Source of the DNA: an uncultured Candidatus Peribacteria bacterium
GTDB taxonomy: Bacteria > Patescibacteriota > Gracilibacteria > Absconditabacterales > Absconditicoccaceae
Assembly (NCBI GenBank): GCA_964510755.1
Contig: CAZECU010000001.1
Location: 1-35,003, forward strand
DNA length: 35,003 nt
Reading direction: 5' to 3'
The notes under the pieces are model-generated. The model searched no databases and was not told the DNA's origin. It saw only the letters and a list, made by a program, of their open reading frames with translations. The position numbers were made by a program, and so were the translations under genes. Shown piece after piece: positions 44 through 34,248 of this stretch. Every line of letters begins with the position of its first letter. Position 1 is the first letter of the stretch.

Positions 44-220
44 TGATATCATATCTTATGAGGTATATTTTACTTAGTCGCTATAAAATATTTCTCCGAT
101 TGGTATCAAGCCACGGTTGCTGAGTCTAGTACGAACATATTAATATATCCTGTTGTCATAGTAGCGGAGAAAATAAAATAAAGCTTTCATCTTTGTATAC
201 GCACAAGTAGACACTTTGTG

Positions 221-371
221 ACAAGAAAATGAATGAATAATGAAAAATGAAAAATTAATAATGTATGATTTTGTATATATGAACTATGGTAATGTTACGA
301 TAGGTTGTATAAAGACAGCTACTTAATTCTCAATTCTTAATTTTTAATTCTTAATTTTTAATTCTCAATTC
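221..371 (-). repeat. Intergenic repeat family 1, copy A (inverted orientation)
   Basis: The reverse complement of 260-322 matches the ~62-nt core of the copies at 12222, 20231 and 22200 (..CTGTCTTTATACAACCTATCGTAACATTACCATAGTTCATATATACAAAATCAT..). Flanked by A/T-rich short tandem repeats (323-371 and 225-259). Abuts the gpmI stop codon. Confidence 0.7.
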
Positions 372-1904
372 TTAATTTTTTACTAGTGAATGCCCTGTCA
401 TCTCAGCAGGGATAGCTATCCCCATAATATCTAGTACGGTAGGTGCTATATCTGAGAGTCCTCCACTCGCTTGCAAAGCTTGCGGTTTGCCATGACTCAT
501 ATACCACATAGGTACAGGATTCATACTATGTGCAGTAATGGGTTCTTGTGGTGTGCCCATATCATCACTATTTCCATGATCGGCAGTGATAAGCAAATCA
601 ATATTTTCCTTGTCACAGAAGGCAACAATATCTTGCATGATAGTATCCAGTTTTTGGATAGCTTTGATCACTGCGTCCATCTTACCTGTATGCCCTACCA
701 TATCTCCATTGGCAAAATTTACCACAACAAAATCAAAATCTTTGGCATACGCAATATATTGATCGTAAATTTCCTGTGCTGACATTTCTGGATCCAAATC
801 ATACGTCGCTACTTTGTGTGAAGGCACAAGAATATCTTTTTCTCCATTAAACACTATCTGTCTATCTCCATTAAAAAACTTCGTGACGTGAGCAAATTTT
901 TCTGTCTCTGCGAGATGAAGTTGGCGCAGTTCTTGATGAGAAATTACTTCTGATAAAGTGTTTTTGATCTCCATAGGCTTGATAAAGAGTGGTCACTCAT
1001 ACTCCTTGAAATATTGTGTCATCGCTACAAAATACAGGTTATCAAGTTTTTTTGTCATAAATCCTGAGCTTCGTGCAGCATATTCTTTGGCGTTGGACTT
1101 GTCCATAGAAACCATTATCGCTTGGGTCAGTTGTCTTGCTCTATCTGATCTGAAGTTGAGATGAAATACTGCATCACCACTTTCTATCTGATCTCACCAT
1201 GTAAAACTCACAGGCTTGATAAACTCGTCCGTGATACCTTGTTCGTATTGTTTGGCAATATATTCACTTGGTGTGTCACTCGTTTGCAATTGTCCAAACA
1301 TAATTTCATCATATGATTTCTGGATTCTGTCTCGATTGTTGTCTCTATCCATGCCATAATATCTGCCTGCTAAGCTTGATATCTTGACGTTGGGATATTT
1401 TTGCAAAAATATTTTGAAATCATCCATAAGCTCTAACATGCTATTTGGTGCAAGATCTCTTCCATCTCCAAACAAATGTAATGATACCGTAATATCACTT
1501 GGGATCAATGGAATAATCTTTTGGAGATGAGTATCCATCGCATGCACACCACCTGGTCCGAAGAGCTGAATCAAATGAAGTATAGAATCATGTTTTTTGC
1601 AATGTTGGATCCCCGCCACAAATTCTGGCAACTGAGCAAAACTTCCATCATCCAGCATATCTTCTATCTCTACGAGATTTTGTTTGATAATTCTGCCTGA
1701 CCCGATTGTCATATGCCCTACTTCGGAATTTCCCATCTGTCATTCTGGTAATCCTACTGATCTTCCAGAAGCATTGAGCGATGCATATGTTTGAGAAAAT
1801 AGTTTTTTGAACAGTGGAGTATCTGCTTGTGTGATTCCATTTTGTGCAGGAGTTTTTGTGTTGATTCCAAATCCATCTAAAATAATAAGTGAGAGTTTTT
1901 TCAT
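372..1904 (-). CDS. gpmI: 2,3-bisphosphoglycerate-independent phosphoglycerate mutase (510 aa, table 25)
   Basis: ORF pieces 372-974 and 1194-1736 plus the N-terminal piece share one frame. I translated the 975-1193 gap and found no TAA/TAG. Motifs: MKKLSLIILDGFG, LPEGQMGNSEVGH (that G is TGA 1737-1739), NFRSDRARQL, ITADHGN. Three in-frame TGA codons (993, 1194, 1737). Confidence 0.93.
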
Positions 1905-6254: not shown

Positions 6255-6809
6255 TTATTCAATCGTCCTCTCGCAAAAGCCAATCTCCCATTCTGGTTGA
6301 AGTTGGTCATTTTTATAGAATTTGATTAAGGCAAACAATCTGCCAGAATAGTTTAGCCTTATCTCTTCCATAGTAATAGTTGAGGATAATGGAAATCCGA
6401 GCATATTGATAGTGAGAGAATATCCCTTTGGTGTGTTGGATACGTTTTTGAAAGATTTACGTATAAATCTTTTTAACTTTTTTTCCTCACGTTTGGATAC
6501 TTCCATGTGAAAACACCAGTTTTCAATTGCCTCATCTAGATGATCCATTTGTTGAAGAGTCAGATATTTAGACATTACTTGACCCATAATCAACGAGTGC
6601 CTTTCTTTGAAGAGCCAGAAACTAATCTCCCAGATAGCCCACAAAAGGACAAGTATCAACAGCGTGATACAGCCAACGAGAGTCGTTAGTTTAGCGAAAT
6701 TTGGATCCCTGGACAATATGGTCATTGAACCAATAAACGCACAGACTGCTACCCATCTCATGACTATTACTACAGCTCTTCTGAATCTTAATTTTTCTTG
6801 ATTTTTCAT
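6255..6809 (-). CDS. 2-TM membrane protein with ~110-aa C-terminal domain, array paralog 1 (184 aa)
   Basis: I trimmed the track ORF 6255-6896 to ATG 6809 (MKNQEKLRF..) because 6810-6896 is the conserved promoter cassette. Two hydrophobic helices and a PKGYSLTINML motif. No UGA. Confidence 0.7.
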   Translation of the reverse strand: MKNQEKLRFRRAVVIVMRWVAVCAFIGSMTILSRDPNFAKLTTLVGCITLLILVLLWAIWEISFWLFKERHSLIMGQVMSKYLTLQQMDHLDEAIENWCFHMEVSKREEKKLKRFIRKSFKNVSNTPKGYSLTINMLGFPLSSTITMEEIRLNYSGRLFALIKFYKNDQLQPEWEIGFCERTIE

Positions 6810-6927
6810 AATGTTTATTTTTTTGTTAATGTTTTGTTTGTTTATTATCTTATATATATATTTTATATTATTTGTCAATACTTGTTTTTTGAACAAAAAA
6901 AATCCGGGAAATATCCCCGGGTTTATG
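6810..6927 (-). promoter_or_regulatory. Terminator-promoter cassette, copy 1
   Basis: On the minus strand: stop codon, CCGGGGATATTTCCCGG hairpin (6904-6920) plus T-run, TTGACA (6873-6878), about 16 nt, TATATA, then an A-rich leader. The ~50-nt block is identical to the copies at 7531-7582 and 8221-8270. Confidence 0.7.
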
Positions 6928-7473
6928 TTATACTTCTATCTCTGTTGCTATTAATTTTCCGAGATAACCTAATTTTAAGTGACCTTTAAGAATTTTTCCA
7001 TCATATTCCAAACAAATATAATGAATGAATTTTTTGGCCATATAATCATTACCATAAGCTTTAGCATCAAGAAATATCTCTATCTTATATCCTTTACGTG
7101 GATAGTTATCATACAATACTTTCTTATCTGATTTATACAACACACTATAAAGAAAAATTGTATATAGTCGATCTGGATTATTGGGTTGCTCATTAGCTTG
7201 AGTTTTAAAAGGAAGAATTTTATATAATTCTTCCACCATAATCATGAGATGTTTGATTTGCTCTGGTGATAGTTCTTTGGACCAATTTTCACGTTTGTAT
7301 ATGAACTCACTTAGCAGCCAGAATATAATCATACCACTATAGATGATGATTTTGCTTGTGCTCCACAATTCCCCTTCGATCAGGTCAAATACTATTCCGA
7401 CGATACACACTGCGGCCATCAATCTACATCCAACGACCATGCTTTTGTTGTTTCTTTGTCTTTGTGTTTCCAT
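6928..7473 (-). CDS. 2-TM membrane protein with C-terminal domain, array paralog 2 (181 aa)
   Basis: Intact ORF. METQRQRNNK.., then ..CRLMAAVCIVGIVFDLIEGELW.., a second TM helix, and a C-terminal domain with RKGYKIEIFLDA. No UGA. Confidence 0.75.
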   Translation of the reverse strand: METQRQRNNKSMVVGCRLMAAVCIVGIVFDLIEGELWSTSKIIIYSGMIIFWLLSEFIYKRENWSKELSPEQIKHLMIMVEELYKILPFKTQANEQPNNPDRLYTIFLYSVLYKSDKKVLYDNYPRKGYKIEIFLDAKAYGNDYMAKKFIHYICLEYDGKILKGHLKLGYLGKLIATEIEV

Positions 7474-7591
7474 TGTTGTATTATTTTGTTGTTATTATTT
7501 TATATTTTTATATCTTATACATAATTTATATCTTTTGTCAATACTTGTTTTTTGAACAAAAAAATCCGGGAAATATCCCCGGATATAATTT
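7474..7591 (-). promoter_or_regulatory. Terminator-promoter cassette, copy 2
   Basis: Hairpin at 7566-7582 plus T-run, TTGACA (7536-7541), N16, TATAAG. Same block as copies 1 and 3, with the A-run one nucleotide shorter. Confidence 0.7.
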
Positions 7592-8161
7592 TTATGAAGC
7601 TCCAATGATTCTAATATGATCATCTTCCCACTGGTGTTCTATTGTTTTTTGAACTTTTTGTCTTACATCTTGATAGGTTAAAATCGCTTTTACTTTGTTG
7701 CCTTGACGTTCAATATAAATATTAGACATGAATGCAACAGGTGGCATCACACATCGAACATCTCGTATTTCATAAATGTCACCCTGATCGCTATCCAAAA
7801 ATATTTCCATTTCATATCCTTTTTCATGCGTATTTATGATTTTGCGACATGCATTAGATTGTACCATTTTTGTGAATTTATCACGTCTTTTTCTCGTGGT
7901 TCTGACCGGGTAAACGTCGTAAAAAAATTCTAAAGCGATTTTTAAATCATTTTTTTGTTGGGAAATTGATTTACCTCCTCGATGGTAGAGAATTTCACAG
8001 ATAATCCAGACTATCCCGGAAGCAATATATACTATCAATATATGGCGTTTCCATGAACCTTCCATGAGATCAAATCCCATACTTATTAAGCAAGCAGCTG
8101 TCCACAATCTGATCGTTATGATTATTTCTTTTGTGGTTTGTTGTCGTTGATTTGTTTCCAT
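7592..8161 (-). CDS. 2-TM membrane protein with C-terminal domain, array paralog 3 (189 aa)
   Basis: Intact ORF. METNQRQQTTK.., then ..IRLWTAACLISMGFDLMEGSW.., a second TM helix, and a C-terminal domain with EKGYEMEIFLDS. No UGA. Confidence 0.75.
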   Translation of the reverse strand: METNQRQQTTKEIIITIRLWTAACLISMGFDLMEGSWKRHILIVYIASGIVWIICEILYHRGGKSISQQKNDLKIALEFFYDVYPVRTTRKRRDKFTKMVQSNACRKIINTHEKGYEMEIFLDSDQGDIYEIRDVRCVMPPVAFMSNIYIERQGNKVKAILTYQDVRQKVQKTIEHQWEDDHIRIIGAS

Positions 8162-8277
8162 TGTTTTATTTTTTTTATTATTACTTTTTTATTTTTATAT
8201 CTTATATATAATTCATATCTTTTGTCAATACTTGTTTTTTGAACAAAAAAAATCCGGGAAATATCCCCGGGTTTATG
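8162..8277 (-). promoter_or_regulatory. Terminator-promoter cassette, copy 3
   Basis: Hairpin at 8254-8270 plus T8, TTGACA (8223-8228), N16, TATAAG, an A-rich leader, then ATGGAAACA. Confidence 0.7.
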
Positions 8278-8505
8278 CTATGAATAATGTATTTTCTTGT
8301 ATTTTTCGCAGAGATGACATATCTCTACAATGATCCAAAATAGTAGATAAGCGCCTGAAAGCACTTTACCAGCGAAGTTACCGATATCTTTAACATCTTC
8401 GCTTGAAGAACATAATGTAACTACAAAGAGTACTGCAAAAATTACTGCAAACTTTCTAATCATGTGACGAATTTTTTTGTTTTCGTCGGTGTTATTTGTT
8501 TTCAT
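8278..8505 (-). CDS. Small 2-TM protein (75 aa), first gene of the array; lacks the C-terminal domain
   Basis: Intact ORF MKTNNTDENKKIRHMIRKFAVIFAVLFVV.. with two hydrophobic segments. It is followed by cassette copy 3. Confidence 0.6.
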   Translation of the reverse strand: MKTNNTDENKKIRHMIRKFAVIFAVLFVVTLCSSSEDVKDIGNFAGKVLSGAYLLFWIIVEICHLCEKYKKIHYS

Positions 8506-12185: not shown

Positions 12186-12194
12186 CTAAATACA

Positions 12195-12317
12195 ATTAAA
12201 AATGAAAAATTGAAAATGAAAGACTTGTCTTCATACAACCTATTATACTATTACTATAGTCCATAAAACAACAAAGTCTTACACTCTTCACTATTCACTT
12301 TTCACTATTCACTATTA
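12195..12317 (+). repeat. Intergenic repeat family 1, copy B
   Basis: Core at 12222-12284: GACTTGTCTTCATACAACCTATTATACTATTACTATAGTCCATAAAACAACAAAGTCTTACAC. Flanked by TGAAAA-type (left) and TTCACTATT-type (right) short tandem repeats. Starts about 10 nt after the stop at 12185. Confidence 0.7.
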
Positions 12318-12358
12318 CCTATCATCTTTTCATTAAAATTTTACCACGTAAAATACAT

Positions 12359-15575: not shown

Positions 15576-17789
15576 ATGGCTATCTATAAAGTAAGAAAAA
15601 GAAATGGAGCAATTATCGATTTTGATATCAGCAAGATTGAGTTGGCGATCAAAAAAGCTATCGAAGCAGTAGAAGGAACGGATTTTAGTGAAGTATCTAC
15701 CCTTGCAAGCAAAGTTAGCGCCACTGTAGAAGCCAAAATAGGCAAGGACATCCCCAACGTAGAAGACATCCAAGATGCTGTAGAACAAATATTGGTCAAA
15801 GAAGGTCATGATACGGTAGCCAAAGCATATATCATTTATAGACAGAAAAGAGCGGAATCTAGATCCAACCAAAGTGTCGTCGTCGAAGTAGAAAAAACTA
15901 TGGGAGAATATCTCGACAACTTAGATTGGAGAATCAACGAAAATGCAAATATTGGATACTCTATCGGTGGTTTGATTTTGAAAAATTCTGAAAAAATAAC
16001 TGCCAACTACTGGCTTTCTCACGTCTATCCTGAAGAAATAGGCAACGCTCACAGAAATGGTGACTATCATATTCATGATTTAGGAATGTTTTCTCCGTAT
16101 TGTGCTGGATGGAGTTTGAGACAATTATTGGAAGAAGGATTTAATGGTATCACCTGATTGCTTCAGTCTGCACCACCAAGACATCTCCAGTCTGCTGTCA
16201 ATCAAATGGTAAACTTTTTGGGGACGCTCCAAAACGAATGGGCATGAGCTCAAGCGTTTTCTTCCTTCGACACCTATCTTGCTCCCTTCGTAGACAAATA
16301 CAAAGATGAAATAAGAGCAGATTTGGATACTACTGGTGCATCGTTTGCTACCCCTGAAGACAAAGAAGCATTTATTTACAAAAAGACATATAGATACGTC
16401 AAACAGCAACTTCAAAATTTTATCTTTAATATGAATGTACCTTCTAGACGAGGAACACAAACACCATTTAGCAATATCACCTTGGATTGGACGTGCCCTG
16501 ATGACCTCAAAGAAAAATCACTTATGCTCTGAGGTATCAACCATGGATATTATCACAAAAAATTTGGAGAACTCAACGAAGAGATCAAGATGATCAATAG
16601 AGTCCTTATAGAAATATATACCGAAGGTGATTCTACCTGATCTGTCTTTACCTTTCCTATACCTACCTACAACATTACGGAAGATTTTCCACGAGAAGAC
16701 AAAGATATCGACTTACTCTTTGAAATGACAGCAAAATATGGTATCCCTTATTTCCAAAACTTTGTAGGATCACAGTTCAAGGTAGTCAAAGACAAAGATG
16801 GTAATGTAACCAAAGTAGAAAATCCTGATGCATACAAACCAGGAGCAGTGAGATCTATGTGTTGTAGACTCCAATTGGATTTGTCTCAGCTCGAAAAAAG
16901 ATGAGGAGGTCTGTTTGGTTCTGCAGAGATGACATGATCTATCGGCGTCGTTACGATCAATATGGCCAGAATAGGATATAATTTTGCATGAGACAAACAA
17001 GGATACAAACAGCACCTTTTATACCTTATGAATCTTGCCAAGACATCATTGGAGCTCAAAAGAAAAGAGGTAAACAAATGGCTCAATGCATGACTCTATC
17101 CATTTACCAAGAGATATCTTCACTCTTTTAGAAACCATTTTTCCACGATTGGACTCAATGGTATCAACGAATCTATCCTCAATTTTACTCAAGGCAAAGA
17201 AGATATCACTACCGACGAAGGTAAACAATTTGCGACAGAAATATTGGATTTTATGAGAGACACACTCAAACAATATCAAGAAGAAACAGGAAATCTTTAC
17301 AATCTAGAAGCTACTCCTGCAGAATGAGCAATGTATAGATTTGCCAAAGAAGACAAAAAACAATTGCCAAATATCATCCAAGCAGGTACTGATGACGCAC
17401 CATTTTACACCAATTCTAGCCAACTTCCTGTAGGATATACTGATGATCCTTTTGAAGCACTCGAACAACAAAACGAATTGCAGTGCAAATATACCTGAGG
17501 AACTGTACTTCACCTCTATATGGGAGAAAGAATATCGGACTCTCAAGCATGCAAAAACTTAGTCAAAAAAGTGATTGAAAATTATCAACTTCCGTATATA
17601 ACCATTTCACCAATCTTTTCTATTTGTCCAAAACATGGATATGTAGTTGGAGAACACGATTATTGTCCAAAATGCGACAAAGAAATAGGATATACAGGAG
17701 AAGAATTTAACATGGAAATCAGAAAAAAGCATACAGCTGACCCAGAAAAACTGAGAGTTATGGAAGAACGCAGAATAACAGAACAATAA
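15576..17789 (+). CDS. nrdD: Anaerobic ribonucleoside-triphosphate reductase, main body (ATP-cone to Zn-ribbon, 737 aa); lacks the glycyl-radical loop
   Basis: Pieces 15414-16157 (trimmed to ATG 15576, MAIYKVRKRNGAII.. ATP-cone), 16323-16532 and 17520-17789 plus smaller ones share one frame, with about 10 in-frame TGA codons. Motifs: HIHDLG, CAGWSL, KRGGGLFGSAEMTGSIGVVTINM, NLEATPAEG, SICPKHGYVVGEHDYCPKC. Ends at TAA 17787-17789 before any RVxGY motif. Confidence 0.92.
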
Positions 17790-17927
17790 AAGAAAAAGAG
17801 AAAAAAGAGAAAAAAGAGAGGAAGCAGAGATGAAAAAATGGAGGAAATATTACAATAGTTCATACACCAGCAAAATCCTACACTTTTCACTATTCACTTT
17901 TCACTATTCACTTTTCACTATTCACTC
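17790..17927 (+). repeat. Intergenic repeat family 1, copy C (partial core), located inside the nrdD coding region
   Basis: Half-core ATTACAATAGTTCATACACCAGCAAAATCCTACAC (17849-17883), followed by three copies of CACTTTTCACTATT (17881-17927). A purine-rich AAAAGAG-type stretch lies on the left. Confidence 0.6.
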
Positions 17928-17991
17928 TTTAGAAGTTTACCATTAGTTTAGCAGTTTATCATCCCTTTTATTTTTTTCACCTTTTGTCGCC

Positions 17992-18213
17992 ATGCAAACA
18001 TTCTACAACAAAGCCGGAGAAGAGATCCAAAGAACTCCATGTCAAGTATTCACACGCGTGATGTGATATCTCAGACCTGTAAACAACTTCCACATTGGAA
18101 AAAAATCAGAATTTTATAGTAGAAAATATTTCGACGAAGGGAAAACTGCGAACTCAGCATTTGTAAGACATTTTGCACCAGAATTTGTCGCTTGTGGATG
18201 CGGACACAACTAA
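17992..18213 (+). CDS. nrdD: Stand-alone NrdD C-terminal glycyl-radical domain (73 aa)
   Basis: MQTFYNKAGEEIQRTPCQVFTRVMGYLRPVNNFHIGKKSEFYSRKYFDE.. matches the class III RNR C-terminus (sRvxGYyRPvxxwNxGKxxEfxxRkxF). The radical Gly is TGA 18064-18066, which is why the standard ORF track missed this ORF. It is in a different frame from the main nrdD body. Confidence 0.8.
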
Positions 18214-18236
18214 TTTCATTTTAGTTATCACACATC

Positions 18237-18689
18237 ATGAATATGAGCGAAAACAACAACGTTTGAGTAGGTTTCTGAGTTATGATCCTCAGAGACGGAA
18301 AGGTGCTCCTCGGCCAAAGACATATAGATCCAGCCAAAGCTGATTCAGAACTTCATGGCGAATGAACACGGACAATGCCCGGTGGAAAAATGCAATTTCA
18401 CGAAAGTTTTGAAGACTCATGCTATCGTGAGACACTCGAAGAGACATGATTACATATCGACAAAAATACCATAAAAATCATCAGTATCACCAATGATATG
18501 GTGCCAGACAAACATTTTGTAACTATAGGATTTTTGTCACAAGATGTACAGGGAGAACCTCAAGTTATGGAACCCGATGAAATCACCCAACGAAAACGAT
18601 TTGATGTACACGACTTACCACAACCATTGTTTTTTCCTAGTGCCAAAGTCATCAAAAACTATCTAGACTGAACTATCTATCAACATTAA
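18237..18689 (+). CDS. Nudix hydrolase (150 aa)
   Basis: Nudix box GGKMQFHESFEDSCYRETLEETGL (Gx5Ex7REUxEExGU), with the last G encoded by TGA 18447-18449. Five in-frame TGA codons, so it is absent from the ORF track. Confidence 0.88.
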
Positions 18690-18779: not shown

Positions 18780-19463
18780 ATGAACAAAGATATGTTTAAT
18801 AATAAATATCGTATAAAGTCTATCAGACTTCCTTATTGGGATTACCATAATGTTTGATATTATTTTGTCACTATTTGTACAAAAGATAGACAACACTATC
18901 TTGGCAATATAGAAAATGGTGAAATGCTTCTTTCTGACATAGGTAAAATAGCCCATCAATATCGATTGGATATTCCCAAACATTTCCCTCATGTATCGTT
19001 GGATGCATTTGTAATTATGCCTAATCACCTGCATTGAATTATATCAATTAATGAAAAAATATCTGAAAATAAAATAAATAAAAATATAATCGGGAATGCG
19101 GTAGAGACGCAAAATATTGCGTCTCCTAAAATAAATGAAATTAAAAATATTGTATTTCCTAAAATAAATAAAATTAAACAATATGGGGATGATTTTAAAG
19201 AGACGCATAATCATGCGCCTCTACCAGCAACAACCAACAATAAAAACCCAAACATATTTTGACCTCAAATAAAAAATTTATGATCGATTATTCGTGGCTT
19301 TAAATCTGCTGTTACAACCTATGCAAAAATACATACTATCGAATTTGCTCGACAACCATGATATTATGAAAATATTATTCGTACTATAGATGCTCATAAA
19401 AAAATCTCCGAATATATCGAAAACAATCCGAAACAATGGAATAATGATAAACATTATATATAA
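18780..19463 (+). CDS. IS200/IS605-type Y1 (HUH) transposase, REP-associated tyrosine transposase (RAYT)-like (227 aa)
   Basis: YRIKSIRLPYWDYHNVGYYFVTICTK, the HUH motif VIMPNHLHGII, FGPQIKNLGSIIRGFKSAVT, RQPGYYENIIR and YIENNPKQW (COG1943-type). Five in-frame TGA-Gly codons. The central region carries two GC-rich palindromes (19104-19125 and 19199-19222). Confidence 0.85.
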
Positions 19464-19499: not shown

Positions 19500-20210
19500 G
19501 TGAAAATTGCGTGAATACAACAATCAACTATGATAGATTACCCAGGCAAAATAGCTTGTGTAGTTTTTACACAATGATGCAATTTTCGTTGTCATTTTTG
19601 TCACAATCCCGAATGTGTGTTGCCAGAAAAAATGCAATTATTTCAAAATGATCTCATCCCAGAAGAAGCATTTTTCAATTTCCTCAAAGCGAGAAAATGA
19701 CTCTTGGACGGCGTTAGTATTTGCTGAGGAGAACCAACTTTGTGGCCTGATCTGTATGACTTTGCCAAGAAGATCAAACAGATGTGATTTCTAGTCAAGT
19801 TGGATACCAATGGGAGAGACTATCAAATCGTCCAAAGAATGATCCAGGATGGTATTTTGGATTATGTAGCAGTAGATCTCAAACATTCTCTCCATCGTTA
19901 TGAGGAAGCTATTGGCGTCCATCAAGAGCCAGAATTTTATAATAGTTTCCAAAAATTGTTGCAGATTTTGCTGGAGAGTAAGATAGATTTTGAATATAGG
20001 ACTACCGTTGCCAAATGACTTCATACTGCGGATGATATAGAAAATATGGCGGTCTATATCAGAGGAGCCAAACATTATTATCTTCAGAATTATATCGGAG
20101 GAAATACTCTTGACCCTGATTTTTGAGGTACCCCTTTTGATGATGAAGAGCTATGAGAATTTAAAAAAATAGCTGAACGTTATGTCCAGCATTGTGAGAT
20201 AAGAAAATAG
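19500..20210 (+). CDS. nrdG: Anaerobic ribonucleotide reductase activating protein (radical SAM, 236 aa)
   Basis: GTG start gives MKIAGIQQSTMIDYPGKIACVVFTQGCNFRCHFCHN (CxxxCxxC) and ICGGEPTL. Eight in-frame TGA-Gly codons. The track shows only 19800-20018. Confidence 0.9.
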
Positions 20211-20312
20211 TGAAAAAACTAAAAACGAAAGACTTGTCTTCATACAACCCATTATACTATTACAATAGTCCCTTGTAACAAAGTCCTACACTTTTCACTC
20301 TTCACTTTTCAT
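20208..20312 (+). repeat. Intergenic repeat family 1, copy D
   Basis: Core at 20231-20291: GACTTGTCTTCATACAACCCATTATACTATTACAATAGTCCCTTGTAACAAAGTCCTACAC, followed by TTTTCACTCTTCACTTTTC. Begins at the nrdG stop codon. Confidence 0.7.
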
Positions 20313-20441
20313 TTATCCTCGAATGAGGGCTTTTCACTCTTTGTGGAAATGTTTTATACAATCTTTGTAGCCTTGTTCATAGGCTTTTTTTGAAAATCAT
20401 TTTATGCTTGACAAATCAAACAAAATGTGTATAATACCGAT
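20313..20441 (-). pseudogene. Relic of the 3' end of a second patatin-like gene (about 43 codons)
   Basis: The minus-strand translation ..IIHILFDLSSIKGFSKKAYEQGYKDCIKHFHKEGKALIRG* aligns with the C-terminus of the intact patatin gene (..DIILKILDTNKKNIQKTYDQGYQDCMKHFK*). The DNA also aligns (GAAATGTTT[CT]ATACAATCTT..). The frame is closed upstream at 20454. Confidence 0.5.
20408..20435 (+). promoter_or_regulatory. Sigma-70-type promoter (TTGACA-N16-TATAAT) for gene 20475-21218
   Basis: Both hexamers are exact consensus matches (20408-20413 and 20430-20435), about 40 nt upstream of ATG 20475. Confidence 0.55.
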
Positions 20442-22070: not shown

Positions 22071-22150
22071 ACAACCTGATTGAAAATCTAAAACAAGATT
22101 ACTATAAGAATCGAGAACGAAGCGCAACGGAGTCCGGCTTTAGCAGGATT

Positions 22151-22295
22151 GAGAATGAAAGACTAAACATTAGTGAAAAGTGAATAATGAATAATGAAAG
22201 ACTTGTCTTCTTACAACCTATCGTCATATTACCATAGTTCATACATACAAAACCATCATTCAAAATTCAACATTAGTTTAAAAGTTCATTCTTCA
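22151..22295 (+). repeat. Intergenic repeat family 1, copy E
   Basis: Core at 22200-22261: GACTTGTCTTCTTACAACCTATCGTCATATTACCATAGTTCATACATACAAAACCATCATTC, closest to copy A. Left arm GTGAAAAGTGAATAATGAATAATGAAA, right arm ..GTTCATTCTTCAC. Confidence 0.65.
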
Positions 22296-22859
22296 CTAAG
22301 TAATCAGTTCTGCTCGATCTCCTGGCTTCACTCCTGCTGCATTTACTTCTTCGATATCGATATGAAAGTCGAGCGCGTAGTCGTCTTTGGCTCTGACTGC
22401 TACATTTTCAAAAATAATTCCTCTGATTCCTCCGACACGCATCTTAACAATATCTCAGTTTTTGATACCCATCTCTTGTGCTTCTTTGACAGTACAATGC
22501 AAATGTCTTTGTGCAACCATAGCATATGGCCCATAGAGCTCTCAGAGGGTTCCTATAATTTTTATATATGCTAAGGACTTACTATCACCTGAAATTTTTA
22601 TTGTTGCATCAGTTCATAAGACAAAATTATCTCCTACCATTAGTTCGACCTGTGTGGTTTTTCTGCTAGGACCTACCACTCTCACTCATGCAATACTTCA
22701 TTTTGCTCAGACTAAGGTCACCGTTTCTTGCGCAGCAAACTCTCCTGGTTGAGAGAGTTGTTTGAGTGATTGTAACTCGTATCCTTTGCCAAATAATGTC
22801 TCTATATCTTTGTGAGAGAGATGAACATGTCTATTGGAAATACCTATAGGAATCCTCAT
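22296..22859 (-). CDS. pduL: Phosphate acyltransferase PduL family (187 aa)
   Basis: MRIPIGISNRHVHLSHKDIETLFGKGYELQSLKQLSQPGEFAAQETVTLVG.. and a second repeat ..AQRHLHCTVKEAQEMGIKNGDIV..HIDIEEVNAAGV. Several in-frame TGA codons. ATG 22859 is preferred over 22892. Confidence 0.85.
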
Positions 22860-24493: not shown

Positions 24494-24504
24494 CCTATTT
24501 TATA

Positions 24505-24597
24505 TAAAATAAGACGCCGAAAATCTCAAAAAAGAGATTTTAACGTCGTTTTTATCCAGCATAGCTGAATAGGAATTATTTTGAAATTCCTATGTGA
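24505..24597. repeat. Structured ~93-nt repeat, family 2, copy 1
   Basis: About 93% identical (by eye) to 34155-34248. Contains a long imperfect hairpin (GACGCCGAAAATCTC / GAGATTTTAACGTC) and a perfect 9-bp hairpin (ATAGGAATT / AATTCCTAT). Confidence 0.6.
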
Positions 24598-34154: not shown

Positions 34155-34248
34155 ATAAAATAAGACGCTAAAAATCCCAAAAAAGAGATTTTAACGTCGT
34201 TTTTATCCAGCGTAGCTGAATAAGAATTGTTTTGAAATTCTTATGTGA
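34155..34248. repeat. Structured ~93-nt repeat, family 2, copy 2
   Basis: Same element as 24505-24597, in the same plus-strand orientation. Its 9-bp hairpin reads ATAAGAATT / AATTCTTAT, a compensated G-C to A-T change relative to copy 1. Lies about 60 nt upstream of the argS start. Confidence 0.6.

What the first reader, a model, noticed from the sequence alone, without database searches (positions are those of the whole stretch)
17640..18213. nrdD is split: the glycyl-radical domain is a separate 73-aa ORF, its radical Gly is a UGA codon, and a repeat element occupies the gap
The main nrdD ORF (15576-17789) contains the ATP-cone, the catalytic barrel motifs and the C-terminal Zn-ribbon (SICPKHGYVVGEHDYCPKC). 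It then runs into a K/E-rich tail and a TAA at 17787-17789 without any RVxGY motif.

About 200 nt downstream, in a different frame, ATG 17992 opens MQTFYNKAGEEIQRTPCQVFTRVMGYLRPVNNFHIGKKSEFYSRKYFDE... This is the canonical class III RNR glycyl-radical segment, and the radical Gly is encoded by TGA 18064-18066.

The gap holds a partial copy of intergenic repeat family 1 (17790-17927), which elsewhere sits just after stop codons. A RAYT-like transposase gene lies only about 800 bp downstream, between nrdD and nrdG. nrdG is intact.

I see three possibilities: the enzyme works as a two-piece NrdD with a trans-acting glycyl-radical subunit (conceptually like a spare-part radical domain), the intervening sequence is bypassed or removed in some way, or nrdD has recently been inactivated. 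A phage T4 nrdD group I intron is known, but this gap is short and consists largely of the repeat.
Basis: partly seen in the sequence, partly recalled or inferred. Interest (0 to 1): 0.75.

Follow-up and report, generated by a model that had tools for sequence, protein, structure and literature searches.

The report
Naturally two-piece anaerobic ribonucleotide reductase
In this UGA=glycine bacterium and all 82 related loci examined, the anaerobic enzyme that makes DNA building blocks is encoded as two genes, with its radical-carrying glycine loop on a separate ~70-residue protein; the split is old and conserved, not damage caused by the repeat that sits between the genes here.

Summary
ORF1 (15576-17789, 737 aa) carries the ATP-cone, barrel and Zn-ribbon and matches Pfam NRDD positions 1-529 of 562. 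ORF2 (17992-18213, 73 aa) matches positions 531-562 and carries RVMGY, with the Gly encoded by TGA 18064-18066. A dispersed repeat fills much of the 202-nt gap.

The split is not a lesion, an intron or an assembly error. All 83 loci examined (the window, GTDB species representatives of SR1/Absconditabacteria and Gracilibacteria, and metagenome contigs) have the same two genes.
- The ORF1 tail and the ORF2 N-terminus are conserved, and an ATG lies 24-25 codons before the Gly in 69 of 83 loci.
- The frame relation looks random (29/27/27), and spacers run from -1 to 250 nt (median 40).
- dN/dS is 0.02-0.13 for both the tail and ORF2.
- nrdG follows on the same strand in 70 of 83 loci.

The repeat is a secondary insertion into an ordinary intergenic spacer. 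It is shared with the closest relatives and absent in others. TGA at the radical Gly is ordinary code-25 usage (12 loci use TGA, 73 use GGN).

Best reading: an obligate heteromeric class III RNR with the glycyl-radical loop supplied in trans. I found no description of this. A 2026 review states that stand-alone glycyl-radical proteins are known only for formate lyases.

The parts
15576..17789 (+). nrdD large-subunit gene (737 aa, code 25). ATP-cone 15588-15854; NRDD barrel 15939-17681; finger-loop SMCCR with Cys429/430 at 16860-16865.
   Evidence: Pfam ATP-cone E=7.7e-20 and NRDD E=2.9e-167, profile positions 1-529 of 562. NCBIfam NF006126, 1012.7 bits. The top 120 database homologs are all 722-743 aa and 68-92% identical, so they end at the same place.
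17625..17675 (+). Zn-ribbon ligands C684-x2-H687...C697-x2-C700. The ribbon is complete within the large subunit.
   Evidence: Read from the sequence. The four residues are invariant in alignment A5. The C/H/C/C Zn motif in T. maritima NrdD lies between the last barrel strand and the Gly loop (PMC4493059).
17682..17789 (+). Conserved 35-aa C-terminal extension of the large subunit (EIGYTGEEFNMEIRKKHTADPEKLRVMEERRITEQ) plus the TAA stop. Contiguous NrdDs have only about 4-5 residues here.
   Evidence: Consensus CD.E.GY.G..F....R.K.T.D..KL across 77 distinct loci. dN/dS 0.05-0.13 against relatives with saturated synonymous sites. AF2 model of the 92%-identical P0241: pLDDT 75-85 and two helices in this stretch.
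17790..17930 (+). Partial, degenerate copy of a dispersed intergenic repeat ('family 1'), inserted directly after the ORF1 stop. Its right arm is a tandem CACTTTTCACTATT array at 17881-17925.
   Evidence: the repeat finder families D2 and D6. 17-mer count 14 against 0.3 expected. The gap aligns with the gaps of L086, L087 and L006 but not with those of L088, L007 or L009. No Rfam hit. Not stably folded. No consensus promoter or terminator on the + strand.
17960..17991 (+). U-rich leader of ORF2 with no Shine-Dalgarno sequence (CCCTTTTATTTTTTTCACCTTTTGTCGCC-ATG).
   Evidence: The same type of leader, including GCC-ATG-CAA, occurs in 23 SR1-type loci. Other genes in the window also have U-rich leaders without a Shine-Dalgarno sequence. 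Conservation is only about that of third codon positions.
17992..18213 (+). Small-subunit gene (73 aa) carrying the glycyl-radical loop and C-terminal tail of NrdD. The NRDD-homologous core is 18034-18132.
   Evidence: Pfam NRDD profile positions 531-562. NCBIfam NrdD models, C-terminal 30-33 positions. 452 database homologs, of which the top 120 are all stand-alone proteins of 52-113 aa. dN/dS 0.02-0.11. AF2 model of the 92%-identical P0121: beta-hairpin with Gly25 at the tip, then a helix.
18064..18066 (+). TGA codon encoding the radical Gly25 of RVMGY.
   Evidence: Read from the sequence. At the homologous position, 73 loci have GGN and 12 have TGA.
18237..18689 (+). NUDIX hydrolase gene between the small subunit and nrdG. 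It is a syntenic neighbour and is not shown to be part of the enzyme.
   Evidence: Pfam NUDIX E=1.9e-16. Syntenic in L088 and L007.
18780..19463 (+). REP-associated tyrosine transposase-like gene. It is a window-specific insertion within the nrd cluster and is unrelated to the split.
   Evidence: NCBIfam NF047646, E=3.7e-12, below cutoff. Pfam Y1_Tnp is weak. Absent at this position in L088 and L007.
19530..20210 (+). nrdG, the radical-SAM activase presumed to install the radical on the small subunit.
   Evidence: TIGR02495 NrdG2, 191 bits against a cutoff of 131. An nrdG homolog lies downstream on the same strand in 70 of 83 loci, at a median of 454 nt after ORF2.

Best explanation
This is a conserved, naturally split class III (anaerobic) ribonucleotide reductase.

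The large gene encodes the ATP-cone, the 10-stranded barrel with the finger-loop cysteines, the Zn-ribbon and a clade-specific ~35-residue tail. The next gene is translated independently from its own ATG. It encodes a ~60-75-residue protein consisting of a short conserved N-terminal segment, the RVMGY glycyl-radical hairpin and the C-terminal tail.

Shown here:
- the two-gene architecture;
- its conservation across SR1/Absconditabacteria and Gracilibacteria;
- purifying selection on both new termini;
- linkage to nrdG.

Inferred:
- The small protein docks non-covalently into the barrel of the large subunit, in the position the C-terminal loop occupies in single-chain NrdD. The conserved tail and the small protein's N-terminus probably serve as the clasp.
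- NrdG abstracts the Gly25 hydrogen.
- The radical is relayed to the finger-loop Cys for NTP reduction.

The repeat in the window's 202-nt spacer is a later, tolerated insertion of a genome-wide intergenic element into what is normally a 10-60 nt spacer. TGA for the radical Gly is ordinary code-25 usage.
For: The break is exact with respect to family models: ORF1 covers NRDD profile positions 1-529 and ORF2 covers 531-562, and NCBIfam shows the same complementary coverage. In T. maritima NrdD the two pieces abut within about 4 residues.

Relatives:
- The closest C-terminal homologs all end at the ORF1 stop and share a conserved tail.
- The contigs L001 and L003-L005 show stop, then an 11-24 nt spacer, then ATG and the small ORF.
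- The top 120 ORF2 homologs are all stand-alone proteins of 52-113 aa.
- The top 120 ORF1 homologs are all 722-743 aa.

Across 83 loci, all are split and none is contiguous. The frame offsets are 29/27/27. Gaps run from -1 to 250 nt with a median of 40. An ATG lies 24-25 codons before the Gly in 69 of 83 loci.

Selection and context:
- dN/dS is 0.02-0.11 for ORF2 and 0.05-0.13 for the tail, with synonymous sites saturated.
- nrdG lies downstream in 70 of 83 loci.
- The ORF2 leader resembles other gene starts in this genome.
- AF2 predicts a Gly-tipped hairpin in the small protein and an ordered helical tail in the large one.

Precedents that a glycyl-radical module or an RNR can work in pieces are GrcA/YfiD for PFL (PMC8683613, PMC13450708) and the split class II NrdJa/NrdJb (cited in PMC9669993). 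The GRD is intrinsically mobile in P. copri NrdD (PMC11226230).
Against: There is no direct evidence of expression, complex formation, radical formation or activity.

I could not scan whole genomes for a second, contiguous nrdD or for other RNR classes. At least one relative has a class I small-subunit gene nearby (L003), so class III may not be the sole RNR everywhere.

In the window the 202-nt spacer would abolish any tight translational coupling that short spacers allow, so stoichiometry here is uncertain.

The loci were retrieved with patterns derived from split genes. '83 of 83' therefore shows that the split is widespread, not that every member of the clade has it.
Confidence: 0.85

Rival explanations
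1. The small ORF is only a 'spare part', like GrcA for PFL, that repairs an oxygen-cleaved full-length NrdD encoded elsewhere. On this view ORF1 is a truncated paralog.
For: The small protein resembles GrcA in concept: a stand-alone glycyl-radical module. Whole genomes could not be scanned for another nrdD.
Against: The adjacent large gene itself lacks the Gly loop in every locus examined, and is otherwise fully conserved and under selection. The small gene always lies immediately downstream of it on the same strand. In the ORF2 search the best 120 hits contained no long protein. These genomes are small (about 1 Mb, from my own knowledge).
Confidence: 0.05
2. The two ORFs are joined into one polypeptide by RNA splicing, translational bypassing, frameshifting or stop-codon read-through, or by protein splicing.
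For: T4 nrdD carries a group I intron (from my own knowledge). In 29 of 83 loci ORF2 is in frame with ORF1, and in L003-L005 the 24-nt spacer contains no further stop.
Against: - There is no Rfam intron or ribozyme, and the gap RNA is unstructured.
- Spacer length and sequence are not conserved, and frame offsets are evenly distributed. No single recoding mechanism fits this.
- The ATG and the N-terminal residues of ORF2 are conserved.
- No intein domain is found, and there is no conserved nucleophile at the junction residues.
Confidence: 0.04
3. nrdD was recently inactivated in this genome by insertion of the repeat or by RAYT activity, and is decaying.
For: A mobile-element-like repeat occupies the gap, and a RAYT-like gene lies about 570 nt downstream of ORF2.
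Against: The same split exists without any repeat in many relatives. Both parts are intact and under strong purifying selection, including against L086, which shares the orthologous repeat insertion (dN/dS 0.024). nrdG is intact.
Confidence: 0.02
4. Assembly or sequencing artefact at the repeat.
For: Repeats can cause misassembly. Read data are not available.
Against: More than 80 independent assemblies from different projects show the same gene pair. The window's gap is collinear with the gaps of L086, L087 and L006.
Confidence: 0.01

Closest known systems
Single-chain class III ribonucleotide reductase NrdD (phage T4, E. coli, T. maritima, P. copri) with activase NrdG
   Same: It has the ATP-cone, the barrel, the finger-loop Cys, the C/H/C/C Zn-ribbon, the RVxGY glycyl-radical hairpin followed by a helix and tail, and a linked NrdG2-type activase.
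   Different: In known NrdDs the Gly loop follows the Zn-ribbon within about 4-5 residues on the same chain. Here a stop codon, a spacer and a new start codon intervene. The large chain has gained a conserved ~35-aa tail and the small chain a conserved ~14-aa N-terminal segment.
GrcA/YfiD, the autonomous glycyl radical cofactor ('spare part') of pyruvate formate-lyase
   Same: It is a small stand-alone protein that carries a glycyl-radical module and works in trans with a barrel lacking a functional module (PMC8683613, PMC13450708).
   Different: GrcA is PFL-type and coexists with a full-length PFL that has its own module. It acts only after oxygen damage. Here the module is NrdD-type (Pfam NRDD only), and the partner never has its own Gly loop, so the small protein is an obligate subunit. 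The 2026 review says such proteins are known only for formate lyases.
Split class II RNR NrdJa/NrdJb (Pseudomonas aeruginosa; Crona et al. 2015, cited in PMC9669993)
   Same: It is an RNR catalytic subunit naturally encoded as two adjacent genes, with the C-terminal functional module on the second chain and an extra fold at the end of the first chain proposed to mediate interaction.
   Different: It belongs to a different class and uses different chemistry (B12-dependent). NrdJb carries the IscU-like/Zn-finger reductant-shuttle module, not the radical site.
Interrupted phage RNR genes (T4 nrdD group I intron; Aeromonas phage Aeh1 nrdA split by a homing-endonuclease gene). Recalled from my own knowledge, not checked here.
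   Same: An RNR gene is interrupted by a mobile-element-related sequence.
   Different: There is no intron RNA signature and no endonuclease gene here. The repeat is secondary, and the split is present without it in relatives.

Membership tests
Class III RNR catalytic subunit (NrdD) | NRDD barrel domain with finger-loop cysteine(s) | tested here: met
   Pfam PF13597 E=2.9e-167. NF006126, 1012.7 bits, above the 548 cutoff. SMCCR read at 16854-16868.
Class III RNR catalytic subunit (NrdD) | Structural Zn-ribbon (C/H/C/C or C4) after the last barrel strand | tested here: met
   C684, H687, C697 and C700 are invariant in A5. The motif is as in TmNrdD.
Class III RNR catalytic subunit (NrdD) | Glycyl-radical motif RVxGY at the C-terminus of the same polypeptide | tested here: not met
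   ORF1 ends at TAA 17787-17789 without the motif. RVMGY is on the separate ORF2. The same holds in all 83 loci.
Class III RNR catalytic subunit (NrdD) | Glycyl-radical motif present in the system at all (on either chain), with conserved flanks | tested here: met
   ORF2 residues 15-47 match NRDD profile positions 531-562. R22, V23, M24, G25, Y26, R28, P29 and V30 are invariant among 5 homologs and conserved among 78.
Class III RNR catalytic subunit (NrdD) | Linked radical-SAM activase NrdG | tested here: met
   TIGR02495, 191 bits, above the 131 cutoff. Present downstream in 70 of 83 loci.
Class III RNR catalytic subunit (NrdD) | NTP reduction dependent on a glycyl radical | not testable with these tools
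   Requires anaerobic biochemistry and EPR.
Autonomous glycyl-radical 'spare part' proteins (GrcA/YfiD type) | Small stand-alone protein consisting essentially of a glycyl-radical module | tested here: met
   73 aa. Its homologs are 52-113 aa stand-alone ORFs. The model shows a Gly-tipped hairpin.
Autonomous glycyl-radical 'spare part' proteins (GrcA/YfiD type) | Homology to the PFL glycyl-radical domain (Pfam Gly_radical) | tested here: not met
   Only PF13597 NRDD is hit. There is no Gly_radical hit at E<=0.01.
Autonomous glycyl-radical 'spare part' proteins (GrcA/YfiD type) | Partner enzyme has its own glycyl-radical domain, and the small protein substitutes for it only after damage | tested here: not met
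   The adjacent large subunit lacks the Gly loop in the window and in the top 120 homologs.
Group I/II intron or other self-splicing or recoding element in the gap | Conserved RNA structure or family match; conserved length and phase | tested here: not met
   No Rfam hit with E<0.4. Fold z=+1.7. Gap -1 to 250 nt and frames 29/27/27.
Intein or split intein | Intein splicing domains flanking the junction | tested here: not met
   No intein Pfam hit in ORF1 or ORF2. The junction residues are not conserved.
REP/RAYT system (for the repeat and the transposase-like gene) | HUH/Y1 transposase of the REP-associated family | tested here: inconclusive
   NF047646, E=3.7e-12, but 46 bits is below the 80 cutoff. 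Pfam Y1_Tnp E=0.0085, below cutoff.
REP/RAYT system (for the repeat and the transposase-like gene) | Short palindromic REPs dispersed in intergenic regions and flanking the RAYT gene | tested here: inconclusive
   A dispersed intergenic repeat with complementary tandem arms exists. It is about 130 nt long and not a classical 20-40 nt REP. Only GTGAAAA-like motifs flank the gene (read).

The most novel reading that the evidence does not exclude
The ~8-kDa protein is a free, exchangeable radical cartridge. NrdG would activate it off the enzyme as a small soluble substrate, and it would then plug into the large subunit. After oxygen cleavage at the glycyl radical, only this small protein needs to be resynthesised, not the 85-kDa enzyme. 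This would be the first such system for any ribonucleotide reductase. It would also be a natural minimal substrate for studying how glycyl-radical activases reach their normally buried glycine.
Probability: 0.3. Interest if true: 0.85.

Novelty: new variant of a known kind. Interest (0 to 1): 0.7.

Why it matters
In every characterised glycyl radical enzyme, the radical glycine sits on the same chain as the barrel. How the activase extracts this buried loop is a long-standing structural problem.

A lineage in which evolution has cut the loop free gives three things:
- It shows that covalent attachment is dispensable for a class III RNR.
- It offers a natural small substrate for NrdG.
- It suggests a cheap repair strategy for oxygen damage in ultra-small, host-dependent bacteria.

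It also matters for annotation. The large gene is currently named 'ribonucleoside triphosphate reductase', and the small one 'hypothetical protein' or, misleadingly, a full 'anaerobic ribonucleoside-triphosphate reductase'. With table 11 gene calling, the small gene is lost wherever its Gly codon is TGA.

Tried and rejected
- **Rfam e-value scan of 17300-18500:** only noise.
- **Folding the 202-nt gap:** less stable than shuffled controls.
- **Promoter and terminator consensus scan:** nothing on the + strand inside the gap.
- **AF2 on a fused ORF1+ORF2 with a block alignment, and on the window's own ORF2:** I used the 92%-identical database homologs P0121 and P0241 instead. No model of the complex was possible.
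- **Foldseek of the small-protein model against the PDB:** no meaningful hit (E>6), as expected for a 73-residue, pLDDT-68 fragment.
- **Profile search of the 1.84-billion-protein representative library:** the profile picked up about 60 upstream columns from contiguous fragments. The top 150 were therefore dominated by contiguous NrdD C-termini, with only two stand-alone representatives visible (P0158, P0506). It says little about how widespread the split is.
- **P0043, the most similar contiguous homolog with a long linker:** its contig has a frame break upstream and no taxonomic information, so it is no use as an 'unsplit sister'.
- **ORF2 against phage genomes:** one weak hit to a contiguous archaeal-virus NrdD.
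- **Conserved ORF2 leader as a special signal:** apart from GCC-ATG and a T at -8, its conservation is about that of third codon positions, and similar U-rich leaders precede other genes. I make no claim about it.
- **Literature:** five full-text searches and targeted reads found no description of a split NrdD.
Full report
**1. What is in the window**

The window is recoded: TGA reads as Gly. nrdD has 10 in-frame TGA codons and nrdG has 7.

ORF1, translated with table 25, runs from 15576 to 17789 and encodes 737 aa.
- It has an ATP-cone at residues 5-93.
- It matches Pfam NRDD over residues 122-702, which are profile positions 1-529 of 562.
- It contains the finger-loop SMCCR and a complete Zn-ribbon (C684, H687, C697, C700).
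- A further 35 residues follow, then TAA at 17787-17789.

ORF2 begins 202 nt later at ATG 17992, in the +1 frame, and encodes 73 aa.
- Its residues 15-47 match the remaining NRDD profile positions, 531-562.
- NCBIfam NrdD models give the same complementary split.
- Against solved structures, the two pieces abut within about 4 residues of T. maritima NrdD: ORF1 ends at chain residue 610 and ORF2 starts at 615.
- The Gly of RVMGY is TGA 18064-18066.

The rest of the cluster also matches the finding.
- NUDIX gene: 18237-18689.
- RAYT-like gene: 18780-19463.
- Intact nrdG: 19530-20210.

**2. The split is conserved, not local**

A search with the last 101 aa of ORF1 fused to ORF2 returned dozens of close relatives (60-85% identity). 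All cover only the ORF1 part and share the tail motif GY.G.EF....R.K.T.D..KL. More distant hits (about 40-50% identity) are contiguous.

Contigs carrying four of these relatives show the same layout: stop, an 11-24 nt T-rich spacer, an ATG, then a 50-75 aa ORF2 homolog.

Two further searches agree.
- ORF2 alone finds 452 proteins, and the best 120 are all stand-alone ORFs of 52-113 aa.
- Full-length ORF1 finds 120 top hits that are all 722-743 aa long.

A scan of one genome per GTDB species gave 80 loci. They come from SR1/Absconditabacteria, Gracilibacteria and MAGs labelled Peribacteria, and they include the complete RAAC1_SR1_1 chromosome.

A script classified the 83 loci that contain both parts. 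These are the window, 5 metagenome loci of which two are identical, and 77 of the 80 GTDB loci.

| Feature | Result |
|---|---|
| Split / contiguous | 83 / 0 |
| ORF2 frame relative to ORF1 | 29 / 27 / 27 |
| Spacer length | -1 to 250 nt, median 40 |
| ORF1 stop codon | TAA 65, TAG 18 |
| ATG 24-25 codons before the Gly | 69 of 83 |
| nrdG downstream on the same strand | 70 of 83, median distance 454 nt |

The loci were retrieved with patterns derived from split genes. The count therefore shows that the split is widespread, not that it is universal in the clade.

**3. Both new termini are under selection**

I compared the window with 13 relatives. Synonymous sites are saturated (pS 0.5-0.8), while pN is only 0.03-0.13. 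Where dS could be computed:
- dN/dS is 0.02-0.11 for the first 53 codons of ORF2.
- dN/dS is 0.05-0.13 for the ORF1 tail.

Alignments of 77-78 distinct loci show strong conservation of two segments:
- the ORF1 tail;
- the ORF2 pattern M.TF.NK.G.EI.RT.C..YTRVMGY.RPV..(F/Y)N.GKKSEFYSR.YF.E....NS.F.

AF2 models of 92%-identical homologs add modest support.
- The small protein is predicted as a hairpin with Gly25 at its tip, followed by a helix (pLDDT 68).
- The large subunit's tail is predicted as ordered helices with pLDDT 75-85.

**4. Alternatives**

*Intron or ribozyme.* There is no Rfam match. The gap RNA is less stable than shuffled controls.

*Frameshift, bypass or read-through.* Random phase, variable spacer length and a conserved ATG are incompatible with any single recoding mechanism.

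*Intein.* No intein domains are found, and the junction residues are not conserved.

*Pseudogene.* This is contradicted by the selection and conservation data.

*Assembly artefact.* This is contradicted by more than 80 independent assemblies, and by collinearity of the window's gap with the gaps of L086, L087 and L006.

*Pure spare part.* The neighbouring large subunit never has its own Gly loop. A second nrdD elsewhere in these genomes could not be excluded with the tools available.

**5. The repeat and the TGA codon**

The gap copy (17790 to about 17930) belongs to a dispersed element. Fuller copies lie just after gene ends at about 12186-12325, 20207-20345 and 22140-22300, with an inverted copy near 200-372.

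Presence of the element varies among close relatives.
- L086/L087 (92% ORF2 identity) and L006 carry an alignable element at the same place, with gaps of 164 and 149 nt.
- L007 has a 29-nt spacer and no element.
- L088 and several other relatives carry different, genome-specific elements of similar architecture.

The spacer therefore behaves like any intergenic region that accepts such elements. The insertion is tolerated: dN/dS against L086 is 0.024.

The RAYT-like gene is absent at this position in L088 and L007.

At the radical Gly position, 73 loci use GGN and 12 use TGA. This is ordinary code-25 usage. It is also a clean illustration that UGA must be read as Gly, because this residue is indispensable.

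**6. How it most likely works**

*Shown:* two cistrons, both conserved and selected, linked to nrdG.

*Inferred from established NrdD and GRE biology* (PMC4493059, PMC11226230):
- The small protein inserts its hairpin into the barrel opposite the finger-loop Cys.
- NrdG generates the Gly25 radical.
- The clade-specific tail and the small subunit's N-terminus replace the covalent link.

ORF2's leader is U-rich and lacks a Shine-Dalgarno sequence, like other genes here. This is consistent with independent initiation. Short spacers in relatives may allow translational coupling, which the window's 202-nt spacer would weaken.

**7. Comparison and novelty**

There are precedents for parts of this arrangement.
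- GrcA/YfiD supplies a glycyl-radical module in trans to damaged PFL.
- The class II RNR NrdJa/NrdJb is naturally split.

I found no description of a split class III RNR in five full-text searches and targeted reads. A June 2026 review states that formate lyases are the only GRE class with small stand-alone glycyl-radical proteins (PMC13450708).

The genes themselves are in public databases. The large one is named 'ribonucleoside triphosphate reductase', and the small one is named 'hypothetical protein' or simply 'anaerobic ribonucleoside-triphosphate reductase'.

I rate this a new variant of a known kind, with interest 0.7. It is well supported genomically and untested biochemically. It would be directly useful for the open question of how activases access the buried glycine.

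Noticed in passing
window 200-372 (-), 12186-12325, 17790-17930, 20207-20345, 22140-22300: The 'family 1' element has a distinctive build: a purine-rich left arm of 7-nt units (GTGAAAA/GTGAATA), a core (GACTTGTCTTCATACAACC...ATTACnATAGTCC), and a complementary right arm (CACTTTTCACTATT)n. It starts at or within a few bases of stop codons. The copy in the nrdD gap lacks the core and has a degenerate left arm.
   Followed up: partly
L014, L019, L020, L024, L028, L031, L088: spacer between the two nrdD genes: Related genomes carry, at the same spacer, elements with entirely different sequences but the same architecture (complementary arms of short tandem units). This suggests a class of genome-specific intergenic elements that repeatedly target gene 3' ends in SR1-type genomes.
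   Followed up: no
window 18780-19463; internal repeat 19111-19176: The RAYT-like gene contains a 33-nt tandem duplication encoding a low-complexity insert (PKINEIKNIV/PKINKIK). It is flanked on both sides by GTGAAAA(A)TTG motifs that resemble the left arm of family 1. The gene is absent from the syntenic site in L088 and L007.
   Followed up: partly
window 18190-18210 (end of ORF2); L006-L049 homologs: SR1-type small subunits end in a Cys-rich motif (ACGC, CPC or CGC) that is absent from other Gracilibacteria small subunits. It might be a redox or metal site on the C-terminal tail. Its function is unknown.
   Followed up: no
window 17960-17991 and 23 SR1-type loci: A recurrent context, CTTTT(T)A at about -25 to -30 and GCC immediately before ATG-CAA, precedes the small-subunit gene. 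Overall conservation is only about that of third codon positions, so its significance is unclear.
   Followed up: partly
window 18237-18689: A NUDIX hydrolase gene sits between the small nrdD gene and nrdG, and is syntenic in L088 and L007. This is possibly a nucleotide-pool sanitising partner of the RNR operon.
   Followed up: no
window 24504-24597 and 34155-34248: A second repeat: two 94-nt copies, 93% identical, containing hairpin-like segments (GACGCCGAAAATCTC...GAGATTTTAACGTC).
   Followed up: no
window 6255-8281 (- strand): There are three 120-nt repeat copies (70-82% identical to the reference copy) spaced 663 and 687 nt apart. They correspond to three tandem paralogous ORFs of about 190-225 aa with similar N-termini (M-E-T-x-(Q)-R-Q...).
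   Followed up: no
L003 9700-9885; L003 8600-9043: One Gracilibacteria relative has nrdR and a class I small-subunit (Ribonuc_red_sm) fragment just downstream of its split nrdD-nrdG cluster. Class III is therefore not the only RNR in every member of the clade.
   Followed up: no
database entries P0001-P0120 versus P0241-P0360: Many public gene calls for this clade were made with table 11 (nrdD chopped into 40-290 aa fragments) or table 4 (Trp in place of Gly at TGA). Where the radical Gly codon is TGA, as in the window, the small gene is not called at all under table 11.
   Followed up: partly
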